A stretch of DNA of 64,000 bases from the human T2T-CHM13v2.0 reference genome, Homo sapiens, in NCBI RefSeq assembly GCF_009914755.1, contig NC_060947.1. One strand, given 5' to 3'. Made by a program: the position numbers and the translations under genes. The first letter of the stretch is position 1, and each line of letters opens with the position of its first letter. Of this stretch, positions 3,790-21,347 are shown piece after piece. A model generated the notes under the pieces. That model was given only the letters and a program-made list of their open reading frames with translations, had not been told where the DNA came from and made no database searches.

Positions 3790-4110
3790 GAAAACAATCC
3801 CTTTACAGTAGCATCAAAAAGAACAAAATACTTAGGAATAAATTTAGCCAAGGAGGTAAAAGCCATGTATACTAAAAACTACAAAATACTTATGTAAGAA
3901 ATTAAAGAAAACACAAATAATGGAAATATATCTCATGTTCATTGATTGCAAGACTTGATATTATTAAGATTTTAATACTACCCCAAACAATCTACACATT
4001 CAATGCAATCCTATCAAAATTCTATGCAGTTTTTAGAGAAATAGAAAAAAGGAATTCTAAAATTCATATTGAACCTCAAAGGGCCCTAAATAGCCAAAAC
4101 AATCTTTGAA
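3790..4110 (+). mobile_element. L1M ORF2 fragment abutting the TG array
   Basis: AAAATACTTAGGAATAAATTTAGCCAAGGAGG ... TTCAATGCAATCCTATCAAAAT ... AAATAGCCAAAACAATCTT. Confidence 0.75.
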
Positions 4111-5389
4111 TGAGTGAATATTTGAGCATGCTCTGTGAGTGAGAGTGTGAGTGACTGTGTATTTAAGCGTATGCCTGAATTTGTGGCCATATGCATAGAT
4201 GTTAGCATCTTTGTGTGAGAGAATGAAAGTATTGGGTTCACTGCTGCGAGCTCCTTAATACGTGAGTATGTTCTTGTGGGTGAAATGTGAGCAGGTGAGT
4301 GTAAGTGCATGTGAGAATATTTTCTTCTGTGAAGGTTTGAGTTTTATGGTGGATGTGAGCATATTTGTGTGTGAGTTTAAATGCGAGCATGTTTCTAGTT
4401 TGAGAATGTTACTGTGCATGTGTGATTGTGGACCTCTGAGTGTATATATTTGTGTGCTTGTACAAGTGTATTTGTGGTTATAGTCATATGATTGAGTGAA
4501 TTTTTCAGCATGTTTATGTGAAGGATTGAATGTGTCAGTGTGCATGTCAATGTATATGTACCTTTGAATGTGAGTGAATTTGAGGGCATGTTTGAGTGAG
4601 TGAATGTTTGTGTTTTATGAGTAAATATTTTAGTGAGTATACGACTGTGAGCATGCCTGTATGCGACAGTGGGTGTGTGAGCCTGTTCATAGATGAGAGT
4701 GTTTTCTTGCGTGTAAATTTGCATGCTGAAAGTGAAAATTTAAGTGTGTTCATCTTTATGAGTGAATTTGTAAGCATGCGATTTTTTGCATATTGGTGTG
4801 TATTGAGCAGATAAAAGTTTCTTGATGTAATCTTGATGTGTGATTACGTTTGAATAAGGTAATTTGTGAGTGTGTGTAAGTAATGTAATTTTTCATATGT
4901 AATTGAGTGAATTTGTGATTTTCTTTGTGACTGTGAGCATACTCATGTATAGATGAATATGTGAGCATGTTACAGTTTCTGACAATGATAATTTGCATGA
5001 GTAAGTAATTGTTTGTGTGCACATAAATGCAATGAGCATGTGTGGTGTGTGAGTGAATCTGTAATCATGCTCATGTGTGTCTGTGAATGTGTGATTAAGC
5101 ATATGTGAGTGAATGACATGAGAGTAATTTGTGTGAATGTGTGAGCATCCAAGTGTGAATGCATATAACGTTATGTATGAGTATGAGTAAATTTGTCTGT
5201 ATGGGCAGATGAGTGAGCAAATAGTAAGCAGGTTAATGAATGACTGCATGTTTAAACATGTGAAAATTTATATTGATGACAATGAGTATGTGAACTTGTA
5301 TATATGAGTTGTTAGTATAACAATATTTGAGTGTTTATGTAAATTTTTATGTGTGTTAAATGTATGCTTGAATTTCAGACCGTATGCAT

Positions 5390-7631
5390 TTTCAAGGTCT
5401 CTTTTTGCTCAAATTTTAGATTCCTCTGGCCCCTCTTCTCCAGTGAGCTTCATGCATGGCCCCATCCTTGGTCTGCTGAGCCATATTTTAGCAAGAATCA
5501 TGCTAAGAAAGTTTAGCCAGAATTCCCCCAACCTTGACACCTAATCAAGTTCCTCTTCCCCAAACCCTTGATAACTAAGTTCCTTTTAGAAATTCTCTAT
5601 CCACTGACTCCCTCACCCTGTGTACTGGCTAGAAATCCTCAGCTGTTCCTGTTGGATTCGGAGTTGCATTTCATATCTTTCCCTTTTGCAATAGCCTTGA
5701 ATAAAGTCTTCCTTACTGATTCAACTTCATCCAGTGCTATCTTTCTCAAATTTTATGAGTCATGACACAGTTCCAGGGGCATGACTTGGATAGAATAGGA
5801 TTCATTCCTGGATCACCAGACGTTTCACCCAGGTAAGGTCTTGGGTTTTCTCCAGGGTACACACCTTTGAAGCGTTTTTCTTCACTTCTGACTTATTCAT
5901 CCAAGATTCGTTAGTAAGTCTGACTTCTGATCCAGTGCTCTGAATGATAGTTTGTTGATGCATGGTAATGACAGATTTTGATTTTTAGGATTCTGAGTAT
6001 AGTTCTGAGTCTGGGTTAGAGTGCCAGCCTTCTTTATTTGAAAGGTACCATTGTTTTAGAAAATGGGAACTTCTGATTGAGTCTTATTTGGTTGAACCTT
6101 GGTTCTCTGATATATAGATTACCCTTCATTTGTAGAGATCTCATTTGTAGAGATCCTGTTTGGATCCTGTTTTCATTGTAAAGATCTCATTCAGATTTTC
6201 TGTCTCTGTTGCCATAACTTTAGTGCCTTCATTTTGCATGGAAAAATCTCATTCTTCTGATTCTCCTCCTTTGAAGACTCTAGCTGACTGTATGCTTCAA
6301 TACTATGACACTAATTTGGCCTAATGGCTTCAAATGGGGCAAAGACAAGAGCCAAATTTTTAATATAAATCAGTGAGTTTCATATCACTGTGTTTATCCC
6401 TGACTTGTAGCTAAAATTTTGAAATGAAAGATATGAGATCTCTGTTTGCATCTGTCTGTATGTTCATGTATGCATGTATATGTTTATATATGTGTGATAT
6501 TTTCCTATTTTCCTACTTCTGGATGACATTACCAAATTAACTTATATAATCCTGTAAAGGAACTCTACTCTAATTGTCTTAGAGATAAGTAAATGGGTAT
6601 ATAAATTAAATATTACTGAAATTCCCCCAAAATAAAAAAGTGAAATGCTAATACTTCCAACATGGAAAAAAAGGTATTCTTATAACAACTAACTCAAATA
6701 TTTTAAAAATGCAAGCTTACATAATTTGTGTAAAACTGTGGCAAATAAAACTTATTGAATATTGTTGGTTTAATCAAATAGCTATGTCTTCTGAGTTATA
6801 AGCATTAAGTATGATATTAGCATACATTTTTATTCTATTTGATCTTACTAGTCAATACGCTAATATTACATCTACTAGAGTCTATACCATCATCAAAACA
6901 TTCAATCTGAAAAACAGGAAATCCATCAAATTGCCAGTACAGACTCCACCATCTAAACAGTTTCAAGCCCAACATCTAGAAGTTTTCTTGACTGGCTGTC
7001 TTGTGGACTCAGAAGCTGGATTTATAATCCATTCCAGCATTAATCTTTCTTTTTCTTTTCAGAGAAATCGTCCTCATTAAACGCCTGATTGCTTGCACTA
7101 TCCAGAAAATACTGCCCTACTACCAAGTCTCAACAGATTGCTCAGCTGATCTTTAATGAACAAAGATGACCAAGTGAGAAATGGACTTATATTGTTCAGA
7201 GGAAAGAATAATATCTCTTCTTGAATAAGAGGAGGGACTAACAAGAACTCCCTCCTTGACTAAACTTAAAGGTATTTTGAGCCCTCTTCTCAACTAAGCC
7301 TCACACTTGGTGTCATCCTAGGCCTGCCAAACCCAGTTTTAGCAAAAGTCTTGCTAAGCCTGCTAAGCAAGAATCACCTGACACTTGATATTTAATCAAG
7401 TTTTTTATCCTCTCCCTCCTTGATACATAACCAAGGTTCTCTTGGTAATTTTCCATTCATTAACTCCTTGATTCTGCCCACTGGCTATAAATCCTTAGTT
7501 GTATCTGCTTTGTATGAAGTTGAGTCTAATCTCTCTCCCTTATTACAATAGCTTCTGTCCCTTATTATGATAGTCTTGAGTAATGCCTTCCTTGCTTGTT
7601 TAATTCCATCTGCTGCAATTTTTCATTGACA
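5390..7631 (+). mobile_element. Internally deleted MER31-like provirus: 5' LTR ~5390-5750, internal remnant, 3' LTR 7239-7631
   Basis: Two diverged LTRs sharing CCCTCTTCTC...TTTTAGCAA..TGCTAAG; polypurine tract AAGAGGAGGGAC just before the 3' LTR; ends ...TGACA; array resumes in register. Confidence 0.7.
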
Positions 7632-19486: not shown

Positions 19487-19950
19487 TGTAAGTGAATTTG
19501 TGCAAATGCTATGTGATTGAATGAGCAGGATTGTATGTAGTTAATTTACTGGTGTGTGCATGTGAGTGTATCTAATGCATCTATGTATTTGAGTATATTT
19601 GTGAGCAGGTTTATATGAGTGAATATGTGATCATGCACACAAAAGTGTGTGAAAGTATGAGCACATTTATGTAAATAAGTTACTGTGTGTGAGCATGAAA
19701 CTGTGAATATGTGTGTCTGTGTAAGTGAAATTGTGCATATGTTATGTGATTAAATGAATGAGCAGGATTGTATGTTAATTTATCGGTGTGTGTGAGTGTA
19801 TCCAATATGTCTATTTATTTGAGTACATTTGTGAGCATGTTTAGGTGAGCAAATGTGTGATCATGCTCACATAAGTGTGTGAAAGTGTGAGCATATTTGT
19901 GTAAATAAGTGACTGTGTGATCATGTAAGTGTGAATGTATGCATGTGTCT
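19487..19950. repeat. ~233-bp tandem duplication inside the TG array
   Basis: GTAAGTGAA.TTGTGCA.ATG.TATGTGATT...GAATGAGCAGGATTGTATGT...AAGTGTGTGAAAGT.TGAGCA at ~19487 and ~19720. Confidence 0.85.
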
Positions 19951-21347
19951 ATATGTGTAATTTTTAAAGTTCATTTGATTAAGTGAATATTAAACATGTT
20001 AATATGAGTGAATGTATGAGCATGTGCATATATGTAAGCATGTATATGTAAGCATGTAAGCATATATGTGTAAGCATGTGAGAGTAAATATGTGAATTTG
20101 TAATGTCTTAGATTGTGCTAGTGTAACAATATTTGAGTGTTGAATTCAAGGGGTGTGTTAAAGTATACTGTGAATTTGTGAGCATGTATATAGGTGCTAG
20201 CATGTTTGTATTAAGTGAATGTGTGTCATATTCATTTGTGTGAGCTTTTTAATGTGTTAGTATATTGTGTGAGTTAAATGTGAGTGTGAAGTGTATCTCT
20301 GTGAGTGAATGAGATCATTGTGAGTGTAAGCACGTTTGTGTGAGAGTGATAGGTAAACAGATTACTATTCATGAATGTGTTAATGTGCCTGTTTAATTGT
20401 ATGGGTGAGTGTGAGCACATAGTATATATAATGGTGTCTCTATAGGTATGAATTTGTGAGAATACACATGTGAATCAGTTAGTGTGTGAGCAGGTCCCTG
20501 TTTTTATGTGTGCTAATGCATGAGTGAAGGGATGCGTAAAAGTGTTCAGGTGAGATATACAAGTGTGTCTTACATATGAATGAACTTGTGAGCATGTTCA
20601 TGTGCATGAGTGTATATGTCTTGGAGATAGTGTATGTGAGTGTTCTATATGTGTGAAAATTTAGCATGATCATGTTACTGAATGTGTGAGCATATCTATA
20701 TATGAGAGCACAAATTTGTGTTTTAGTGTATTTGTGAGCATGTTCACATGTGAGCATAAGTGTGTGTAACTAAATAATGAGAATGTATATGTGAATATAT
20801 AATTATGGGAATATGATTAGGCATGTGGTTGTAAATAATTGTATGTAAAGGTATCTATATATTATAAATGTGATTTAATTTTATAAACGTGTGTGTGATT
20901 GAATGTATTAGCATGTCCCTGTTTATGTTTACATACATGTGTGAAAGAAAGTATGAGTGAGTAAATGTGAGCATATATGAGTGGGTCCTGTGTGTAAGTT
21001 TGTAGGTATGTCCATGTGAAAGAAAGAAAGTGTGAGCAAGTTTGTGTGAATGTGTGCACGTGAAGGTGTCTGTCTATATATGTTAGTGAATATATGAGCA
21101 TGTCATGAGCAAAGCAAGTCCATTTGTAAACTTTAATGTGTGAGTGTATCTATGTAAGTGAATGTGTGACCTTTTATGTAAGCATGAGCATATTCATGGG
21201 CAGTGAATACCTGAAAATATTCCTTTTGTGGTCATATTATTTTGGGTAACCAAATGTGTGAGTATGTACATATAAATGTGAATGAGTCTGTCTGGTGTGT
21301 GTGATTTTGTGAGCACATTCATGTGAGTGAGTGAATGAGCACGTTTG

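What the first reader, a model, noticed from the sequence alone, without database searches (positions are those of the whole stretch)
4110..20300. Hidden ~1.2 kb macrosatellite inside apparently simple TG-rich DNA
Seen: long landmarks recur colinearly. ATATTTGA(G/A)TG.T at 5323, 8134, 9789, 11064, 19139, 20129; CAATGA(T/C)A..TG at 4983, 9425, 10764, 18900; CT(G/A)TTCAT.G.TGA.AGTGTT at 4683, 9126, 18586; T(G/A)TGAA.GA..AATGTGTCAG at 4517, 8959, 10184. After subtracting insertions the spacing is about 1.0-1.3 kb, with one ~0.57 kb partial unit. Inference: an ancient higher-order tandem array of at least 6 units, which masking tools would probably report only as simple or low-complexity repeat.
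Basis: seen in the sequence. Interest (0 to 1): 0.8.

Follow-up and report, generated by a model that had tools for sequence, protein, structure and literature searches.

The report
Decayed 1.2 kb tandem array, chrX
A stretch of human X-chromosome DNA that looks like plain TG-rich filler is really the worn-down remains of an old tandem array of about 1.2 kb units, later broken up by mobile elements, and nothing seen here suggests it still does anything.

Summary
All four landmark sets sit at the stated coordinates; two patterns were written slightly wrong. With the inserted mobile elements cut out, the TG-rich DNA aligns to itself in long colinear stretches: 18 HSPs of 300 bp or more, top score 268 bits. 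None of 40 composition-preserving shuffles gave one (top 72 bits). In 4106-20487, 17 of 19 HSPs of 200 bp or more lie on the diagonals predicted by seven ATATTTGA unit starts. Net unit lengths are 1204, 558, 1226, 1275, 1135 and 990 bp. Units are 58-67% identical and their tree is star-like.

The array probably runs on to about 45200, giving 12-13 unit equivalents in 14.8 kb of TG-rich DNA spread over 41 kb. It is split by LTR-like, LINE-like and Alu-like insertions.

The unit is confined to this locus. Elsewhere in CHM13 there are only compositional matches to GT-rich minisatellites. TRF never reports the 1.2 kb period. I found no base monomer, CTCF motif, coding signal or Rfam match.

Best reading: a fossil macrosatellite built from degenerate (TG)n-like DNA, amplified once, no longer homogenised and decaying neutrally. 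It is a new member of a known kind and of modest interest.

The parts
4106..5322 (+). Unit U0. The array starts at 4106 and the unit-start landmark is at 4119. This is a full unit of about 1204 bp.
   Evidence: The profile aligns positions 7-1211 to 4143-5322. The leave-one-out score is 490 bits against 152 or less for shuffles.
5323..8133 (+). Unit U1, a partial unit of 558 bp net. It is split by an insertion and lacks about 680 profile positions near 7830-7837.
   Evidence: Profile positions 1-61 align to 5323-5389, 60-251 to 7634-7829 and 930-1191 to 7837-8108. An HSP runs across the excision junction.
5390..7633 (.). Insertion of about 2.24 kb carrying two LTR-like direct copies, at 5431-5695 and 7282-7552.
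   Evidence: The two copies are 68.5% identical over 273 columns, with K about 0.37. The composition is not TG-rich.
8134..9788 (+). Unit U2 (1226 bp net), split by an LTR-like insertion at about 8363-8785.
   Evidence: Profile positions 1-224 align to 8134-8362 and 220-1210 to 8786-9787. The inserted piece has three other copies in the window. The leave-one-out score is 398 bits.
9789..11063 (+). Unit U3 (1275 bp), uninterrupted.
   Evidence: Profile positions 1-1197 align to 9789-10993. The leave-one-out score is 389 bits.
11064..19138 (+). Unit U4 (1135 bp net), split by a 6.9 kb block of LINE-like and Alu-like DNA at about 11188-18123.
   Evidence: Profile positions 1-124 align to 11064-11187 and 121-1103 to 18124-19132. 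The block matches other LINE-like copies in the window, one of which encodes RVT_1. The leave-one-out score is 454 bits.
19139..20128 (+). Unit U5 (990 bp). It holds a younger internal 230-bp tandem duplication at 19484-19988.
   Evidence: Profile positions 1-1028 align to 19139-20123. The leave-one-out score is 215 bits against 150 or less. TRF reports a 230-bp period, 1.9-2.2 copies, 80-84% matches, with K 0.13.
20129..21336 (+). Unit U6. It begins with the landmark, and only the first 390-640 bp are still recognisable.
   Evidence: Profile positions 1-605 align to 20129-20767. It scores 148.7 bits against a maximum of 112 in 20 shuffles. The HSP 9521-10164 against 19837-20479 supports it.
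21673..25265 (+). More diverged continuation of the array, with unit starts near 22584 and 24841. Insertions lie at 23946-24361 (LTR-like) and 24536-24860 (Alu-like).
   Evidence: Pieces P3 and P4 beat 20 of 20 shuffles (z 4.4 and 6.6), but P2 does not (z 1.6). The pairwise HSPs are in register.
25266..40579 (.). A 15.3 kb block of inserted LINE-like and ERV-like DNA that splits one unit.
   Evidence: The profile reaches position 555 at 25266 and resumes at position 535 at 40581. RVT_1 is found at 37287-38513 on the minus strand, and a weak integrase-core match at 32973-33377 on the minus strand.
40580..45200 (+). Distal part of the array, with unit starts near 40790, 42270 and 43399. An Alu-like insertion lies at 41791-42078 and a 72-bp duplication at 42156-42297.
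   Evidence: D1, D2 and D3 beat 20 of 20 shuffles (z 4.2, 4.6, 6.3), but D4 does not (z 1.1). HSP offsets of 1182 and 1128 bp separate successive units. The boundaries were read.

Best explanation
This is the fossil of a locus-specific macrosatellite. Three steps are proposed.

(1) The raw material was degenerate (TG)n-type, cryptically simple DNA. It still shows a period-2 purine/pyrimidine phase and a small vocabulary of words such as GTGAGTGAAT, GAATGTGTGA and TGTGAGCATG.

(2) A stretch of about 1.2 kb of this DNA was amplified head to tail, in essentially one burst, to roughly a dozen units (about 15 kb). The mechanism was probably unequal exchange or replication-based tandem duplication, which the abundant microhomology would favour.

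(3) Homogenisation then stopped. Each unit decayed independently, and LTR, LINE and SINE elements inserted, stretching the locus to 41 kb. Small local tandem duplications (230 bp, 72 bp) kept arising.

Shown: the tandem colinear homology, its excess over shuffles, continuity of units across the insertions, the star-like relationship of units, and confinement to this locus. Inferred: the amplification mechanism, an age of the order of 100 million years, and the absence of a present sequence-specific function.
For: - Long colinear self-homology is absent from shuffles: 18 HSPs of 300 bp or more against 0 in 40 shuffles.
- 17 of 19 HSPs of 200 bp or more within 4106-20487 lie within 28 bp of a predicted diagonal, where 31% of offset space lies within 60 bp of one.
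- Leave-one-out profile scores are 389-490 bits for U0, U2, U3 and U4 and 215 for U5, against 152 or less for block shuffles.
- Alignments and profile coordinates continue across three excised insertions, at profile positions 61/60, 224/220 and 124/121.
- The ML tree is star-like, with terminal branches of 0.28-0.53 and internal branches of 0.04 or less.
- Unit pairs have K about 0.33 and the LTR-like pair 0.37. The internal duplications are younger, at 0.13 and 0.06.
- The period-2 R/Y phase persists to lag 50 (same-class 0.547 at lag 50 against 0.467 at lag 51, and 0.51 in the rest of the window). Even k-mer offsets dominate.
- Four whole-genome searches place every long match of the core units in this locus only (distal query).
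- There is no sign of function: 0 CTCF-core matches, 0 Rfam families, 0 Pfam families in 5 of 5 minus-strand open frames, and no gene in the hub's annotation.
Against: - The evidence beyond 20.5 kb is weaker. Profile hits alone reach 94-196 bits on shuffled TG-rich DNA, against 190-212 for the best real hits. 2 of 8 distal pieces (P2, D4) do not beat their shuffles, and 4 of 16 distal HSPs are off the predicted diagonals.
- The 8-mer ATATTTGA is invariant at 7 of 7 unit starts although only 32% of columns are invariant across five units. The expected number of invariant runs of 8 or more is 0.07. This may be rate heterogeneity, but it is not explained.
- The transition:transversion ratio between units is about 1:1. 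This suggests alignment noise, so the distances and the age are rough.
- Neutrality is an argument from absence. Conservation in other species, transcription and chromatin could not be examined.
Confidence: 0.75

Rival explanations
1. The array is a functional element kept by selection. One version is a GU-rich transcript dense in 5'-splice-site-like GTRAGT and in UG/GAAUG words that binds abundant RNA-binding proteins. Another is a DNA structural element prone to forming Z-DNA.
For: - GTRAGT occurs 184 times on the + strand (12.4 per kb) against 4 on the - strand and about 0.5 per kb in the rest of the window.
- GAATG occurs at 8 per kb and TGTGTG at 18 per kb.
- Alternating R/Y runs of 12 or more occur at 4.4 per kb against 0.43 per kb.
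- All TG-rich pieces keep one orientation over 41 kb.
- ATATTTGA is invariant at 7 of 7 unit starts.
- The protein-binding meanings of these words are recalled, not tested.
Against: - The GTRAGT density is reproduced by an order-3 Markov model of the same DNA (199 +/- 13 against 184 observed), so it follows from local composition.
- Units have diverged to 58-67% identity with many indels and deletions, including a partial unit and a truncated unit.
- The array is riddled with insertions.
- No gene or functional element is annotated there (hub note), and there is no Rfam match.
Confidence: 0.1
2. The periodicity is a by-product of low-complexity composition, so there is no true long-range homology.
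For: A profile built from the units scores 94-196 bits, with spans of 600-1150 positions, on shuffled TG-rich DNA. This shows that compositional similarity alone can produce long weak alignments.
Against: - There were 0 HSPs of 300 bp or more in 40 shuffles against 18 in the real sequence.
- Leave-one-out scores are 2.6-4.8 times the best shuffle for four units.
- 17 of 19 long HSPs lie on the predicted diagonals.
- Specific 13-21-base landmarks recur only at in-register places.
Confidence: 0.02
3. The units are copies of a dispersed repeat family (a transposable element or a known satellite) or of a segmental duplication from elsewhere.
For: The distal query 42270-44572 finds 66 matches on many chromosomes at 64-77% identity.
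Against: - Those matches pile up on one simple part of the query (about positions 940-1780) and overlap each other at shifted positions.
- They fall in short-period GT-rich minisatellite blocks of different composition (G .30-.42, A .13-.19).
- For the core units, every match above 100 bits is in this locus. Outside it the best is 71.6 bits.
- All units are head to tail on one strand.
Confidence: 0.03

Closest known systems
X-linked macrosatellites DXZ4, FIRRE and ICCE
   Same: They are non-coding tandem arrays with kilobase-scale units on the human X chromosome.
   Different: - Those arrays are described as homogeneous, uninterrupted, copy-number polymorphic and CTCF-bound. DXZ4 has 12-100 or 50-100 units of 3 kb (abstracts listed; passages).
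- This array is TG-rich (C 9%, G+C about 35%) with 0 CTCF-core matches.
- Its units are only 58-67% identical.
- It is broken by eight insertion blocks.
Degenerate GT-rich minisatellite blocks elsewhere in the same genome (for example C12:49.84 Mb, C11:126.48 Mb, C9:136.17 Mb)
   Same: They share the strand-asymmetric, C-poor TG-rich composition and the words TGTGAG, GCATGTG and GAATGTG. They are found by the distal query.
   Different: - They are richer in G and poorer in A.
- They have short periods.
- They match only by composition, at overlapping shifted positions.
- None aligns to the core 1.2 kb unit.
- Whether they hide long periods of their own was not tested.
Cryptically simple sequence (concept of Tautz, Trick and Dover, recalled and not read here)
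   Same: The DNA is built from scrambled short motifs without a clean period. TRF at usual settings covers only 15% of it.
   Different: Here a long-range 1.2 kb tandem order is superimposed on the scrambled motifs.
Old diverged layers of satellite arrays that are no longer homogenised and are invaded by transposable elements (general knowledge, recalled)
   Same: The units are star-like in relationship, highly diverged, and carry insertions of several ages.
   Different: No base monomer and no neighbouring young homogeneous array were found. The flanks examined are free of it: 20 kb upstream, and downstream the 18.8 kb of window after 45200 plus 10 kb beyond it.

Membership tests
Macrosatellite (large-unit tandem repeat) | Repeat unit of about 1 kb or more | tested here: met
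   Full units measure 1204, 1226, 1275 and 1135 bp, and U5 measures 990 bp.
Macrosatellite (large-unit tandem repeat) | Head-to-tail tandem arrangement at one locus | tested here: met
   All HSPs are +/+. 17 of 19 lie on the diagonals predicted from consecutive unit starts.
Macrosatellite (large-unit tandem repeat) | Homogeneous units, with high identity between copies | tested here: not met
   Identity between units is 58-67%, and the tree is a star with long terminal branches. It is therefore best called a fossil of such an array.
Macrosatellite (large-unit tandem repeat) | Copy-number polymorphism between individuals | not testable with these tools
   Only one assembly is held.
CTCF-binding X-linked macrosatellites (DXZ4/FIRRE/ICCE type) | CTCF motifs within the units | tested here: not met
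   There are 0 matches to a recalled CTCF core pattern on either strand of the 14.8 kb of TG-rich DNA. Only one degenerate pattern was tried.
Higher-order repeat (HOR) satellite | The unit is made of a defined number of recognisable base monomers | tested here: not met
   The k-mer offsets show no dominant short period. There is only an even/odd phase. TRF finds only scattered 2-3 copy rows.
Interspersed repeat (transposable element) family | Dispersed copies at many loci | tested here: not met
   Three core-unit queries find long matches only in this locus. The tool skips simple and very common words, so absence is not absolute.
Simple or cryptically simple sequence | Biased composition and over-used short words without a long unique sequence | tested here: met
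   Composition is A .27, C .09, G .26, T .38. The commonest words are listed and the period-2 phase is shown. This describes the substrate, not the 1.2 kb order.

The most novel reading that the evidence does not exclude
The array is an ancestral eutherian X-linked macrosatellite that has persisted at this site for roughly 100 million years because it still matters. It might act as a one-strand GU-rich, 5'-splice-site-dense RNA scaffold or as a Z-DNA-prone structural domain of the X. The invariant ATATTTGA at every unit start would then be a conserved binding or boundary site.
Probability: 0.06. Interest if true: 0.7.

Novelty: new member of a known kind. Interest (0 to 1): 0.3.

Why it matters
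It shows that DNA which repeat finders leave unmasked, or would at most call simple sequence, can hide a kilobase-scale tandem order. That order is recoverable only after excising mobile elements and comparing with composition-preserving controls. Fossil arrays of this kind record how large tandem repeats are born from microsatellite-like DNA and how they die. They are also candidates for mis-annotation as unique sequence. For X-chromosome biology, the locus adds one dead macrosatellite to the short list of X-linked large tandem repeats. Nothing found here suggests it shares their CTCF-based role.

Tried and rejected
- **TRF.** The window was scanned with a maximum period of 500. The window and the TE-excised sequence were scanned with a maximum period of 2000 and lenient scores. 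The 1.2 kb period was never reported. Only 107-, 114- and 230-bp local duplications were found.
- **k-mer offset histogram** (k=9). It shows peaks at 1251-1350, 1751-1800, 2501, 3351, 3701 and 4201-4300 (z 3.4-6.9 against 20 block shuffles), but it is noisy. The alignment-based tests are the stronger evidence.
- **Profile scan alone as proof of distal units.** Rejected, because shuffled TG-rich DNA scores up to 196 bits. It was replaced by per-piece shuffles and a register test.
- **Rotated-partner control**. It was uninformative, because half of a rotated unit stays in register. The block-shuffled partner control in the same call was usable: real scores were 54-375 against 3-24 for the 10 core pairs.
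- **Coding potential.** The open frames of 111-202 codons on the G-poor minus strand are His/Thr-rich, low-complexity text. 5 of 5 tested have no Pfam family.
- **RNA families.** There were 0 Rfam matches at gathering thresholds in the whole window.
- **Dimeric higher-order pattern** (alternate units more alike). Not seen in the identity matrix or the tree.
- **More array outside the window.** A compositional flag at L011 4701-5200 is not TG-array DNA on reading and gives no profile hit.
- **Literature.** Passages were read in PMC2588610, the T2T repeat preprint 10.1101/2021.07.12.451456 and PMC8327908. None mentions it. The preprint's supplements, which may list newly annotated arrays by coordinate, are closed.
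Full report
**What is there.** The window is CHM13 chrX:104,780,001-104,844,000 (hub note). Between about 4106 and 45200 lie nine stretches of strongly strand-asymmetric, C-poor DNA. Their composition is A .26-.28, C .08-.10, G .26-.28, T .34-.39, and together they total 14,847 bp. All have the TG-rich strand on +. They are separated by ordinary-composition DNA that matches other interspersed copies in the window:
- LINE-like elements, one of which encodes RVT_1.
- Alu-like SINEs, named from recall of their text.
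- An LTR-like family with four copies in the window.
- A 2.24 kb element with two LTR-like direct copies that are 68.5% identical.

**Check of the observation.**
- ATATTTGARTGNT gives 6 of 6 matches (expected 0.07).
- The 21-mer CTRTTCAT... gives 3 of 3 matches (expected 0).
- Pattern 2 was transcribed with one N too few. It gives 0 of 4 places as written and 4 of 4 places plus one stray hit with three Ns.
- Pattern 4 has a 1-bp indel. It gives 1 of 3 places as written and 3 of 3 with a variable gap.
- A seventh ATATTTGA lies at 4119, at the very start of the TG-rich DNA.

**Is it more than composition?** Self-BLAST of the raw window already gives long +/+ alignments. Examples are 4437-5357 against 8883-9819 (67.0%, 982 columns, 235 bits), 4275-5148 against 18143-19070 (65.4%, 946 columns) and 8823-9609 against 18259-19074 (65.7%, 849 columns).

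After excising the insertions, the 14.8 kb concatenate gives 228 HSPs, 18 of them of 300 bp or more, with a top score of 268 bits. In 40 controls that keep local composition (10 each of Markov-3, Markov-5, 20-bp blocks and 50-bp blocks), the best HSP was 44.6-71.6 bits and none reached 300 bp. Several real HSPs run straight across the excision junctions. The insertions therefore landed in a pre-existing repeat.

**Anatomy.** I used the seven ATATTTGA landmarks as unit starts. The net unit lengths are:
- U0, 4119-5322: 1204 bp.
- U1: 558 bp.
- U2: 1226 bp.
- U3: 1275 bp.
- U4: 1135 bp.
- U5: 990 bp.
- U6 starts at 20129.

Of 19 HSPs of 200 bp or more inside 4106-20487, 17 lie within 28 bp of a diagonal predicted from these starts. 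By chance, 31% of offset space lies within 60 bp of one. The two exceptions are a 230-bp internal duplication in U5 and one 58-bit HSP.

A 1211-position profile of U0 and U2-U5 shows where the insertions sit. U1 is interrupted at profile position 60/61, U2 at 220/224 and U4 at 121/124. U1 also lacks positions 252-929 at about 7830-7837, away from its insertion. Leave-one-out profiles score the omitted unit at 490, 398, 389 and 454 bits (U0, U2, U3, U4) and 215 bits (U5). Block-shuffled versions score 152 or less.

**Extent.** Profile hits outside the training units must be read with care. On shuffled TG-rich DNA the profile still reaches 94-196 bits. Piece by piece, 6 of 8 distal pieces (P1, P3, P4, D1, D2, D3) beat all 20 of their own 30-bp block shuffles (z 4.2-6.6). 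P2 and D4 do not.

Independently, 12 of 16 HSPs of 200 bp or more that reach beyond 20487 lie within 60 bp of diagonals predicted from unit starts near 22584, 24841, 40790, 42270 and 43399. The chance expectation is 30%. The profile also stops at position 555 at 25266 and resumes at position 535 at 40581, as if the 15.3 kb block were one insertion site within a unit.

I therefore read the whole TG-rich domain as one array of about 12-13 unit equivalents. The 5' six or seven units are a better-preserved, possibly younger layer. No further TG-array DNA was found in 20 kb upstream or in 10 kb beyond the window's downstream end. The window itself shows none after 45200.

**Substrate.** There is no base monomer. 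Even k-mer offsets dominate up to about 60 bp. The purine/pyrimidine class is correlated at even lags and anti-correlated at odd lags out to lag 50 (0.547 at lag 50 against 0.467 at lag 51; the rest of the window is about 0.51). This fits descent from an alternating (TG)n-like repeat. The commonest words are TGTGTG, TGTGAG, GTGAGT, GTGAGTGAAT, GTGAATGTGT and TGTGAGCATG. TRF with usual penalties covers 15% of the TG-rich DNA. It never reports a period above 230 bp, even with a maximum period of 2000 on TE-excised DNA. 'Hidden' is therefore fair. 'Higher-order', in the satellite sense, is not demonstrated.

**History.**
- Units are 58-67% identical in a MAFFT alignment.
- Local alignments with gaps excluded give K about 0.33 between units. 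The range is 0.25-0.42 over 10 pairs, and transitions are about equal to transversions.
- An ML tree of the five core units is a star, with terminal branches of 0.28-0.53 and internal branches of 0.04 or less. This means one amplification burst, then independent decay and no later homogenisation.
- The LTR-like pair inside U1 has K about 0.37. If the two copies are the LTRs of one element, the array is at least as old as that insertion.
- The 230-bp duplication in U5 (K 0.13) and the 72-bp duplication at 42156-42297 (K 0.06) are younger. The DNA therefore stayed prone to tandem duplication.
- With neutral mammalian rates of about 1-2 x 10^-9 per site per year (recalled, not from a call), 0.17-0.35 substitutions per lineage puts the burst at the order of 100 million years ago, with wide error. 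This date is inference.

**Elsewhere in the genome.** Three core-unit queries (8790-10000, 18127-20128, 4106-5379) find every match above 100 bits inside this locus. Outside it the best is 71.6 bits, over about 115 bases. The distal query 42270-44572 finds 66 matches. Those on other chromosomes pile up on one simple stretch of the query and overlap at shifted positions. They lie in GT-rich minisatellite blocks of different composition (for the chr9 locus). The unit is locus-specific, while the kind of substrate is widespread. The tool skips simple and very common words, so absence elsewhere is strong but not absolute.

**Function.** I found nothing that points to one.
- There are 0 matches to a recalled CTCF core pattern.
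- There are no Rfam families.
- The minus-strand open frames are low-complexity, and 5 of 5 tested have no Pfam match.
- No gene or functional element is annotated there (hub note).
- GTRAGT is about 25 times denser on the + strand than in the rest of the window (12.4 against 0.5 per kb). An order-3 Markov model of the same DNA reproduces this (199 +/- 13 against 184).
- One unexplained item remains. ATATTTGA is invariant at 7 of 7 unit starts, although only 276 of 853 fully occupied columns (32%) are invariant across five units and no invariant run of 7 or more was seen in that alignment.

**Known or new.** Six literature searches returned results. Passages were read in three papers: PMC2588610, 10.1101/2021.07.12.451456 and PMC8327908. 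None mentions this locus. The TRF-based survey of large human tandem repeats has no occurrence of 'Xq22' in its main text. The supplements of the T2T repeat preprint are closed, and Dfam/RepeatMasker could not be run. I therefore cannot exclude that a track already labels it.

It fails the homogeneity and CTCF-motif features of the active X-linked macrosatellites. It is best filed as a fossil macrosatellite built on cryptically simple DNA, which makes it a new member of a known kind.

Noticed in passing
window 19484-19988: A 230-bp tandem duplication (1.9-2.2 copies, 80-84% matches, K 0.13) lies inside unit U5. It is clearly younger than the 1.2 kb units.
   Followed up: partly
window 42156-42297: A 72-bp unit occurs in 2.0 copies at 94% matches (K 0.06) inside the distal TG-rich DNA. 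This is a still younger local duplication.
   Followed up: partly
window 56335-56498: A 78-bp unit occurs in 2.1 copies at 97% matches, outside the array in C-rich DNA.
   Followed up: no
window 11195-18106 and 25396-30857: Two long LINE-like elements of one family, about 75-82% identical, lie in opposite orientation with their 5' ends facing inward. They bracket 7 kb of the array as a large inverted repeat.
   Followed up: no
window 16500-18100: A G+C-rich stretch (52-59% G+C in 1-kb windows) lies at the inner end of the LINE-like element. It has 162- and 168-codon open frames on the + strand that match no Pfam family.
   Followed up: partly
window 4119, 5323, 8134, 9789, 11064, 19139, 20129: The 8-mer ATATTTGA is invariant at 7 of 7 unit starts, in units that are otherwise only 58-67% identical. 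This is more conserved than a uniform-rate model predicts, and it is unexplained.
   Followed up: partly
window 8361-8768, 23963-24360, 51159-51574, 57675-58083: There are four copies of one LTR-like interspersed repeat, 67-76% identical. Two of them are inserted in the array in opposite orientations.
   Followed up: no
L015/L016 (G000:C12:49.84 Mb), L017 (C11:126.48 Mb), L010 (C9:136.17 Mb): Other degenerate GT-rich blocks of 1.5-3.5 kb have related word usage but more G and less A. They were not tested for hidden long periods.
   Followed up: partly
window 32973-33377 (-): An open frame has a weak integrase-core match (rve, E 5e-4, below Pfam's cut-off). It suggests an ERV fragment inside the 15.3 kb insertion block.
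   Followed up: no
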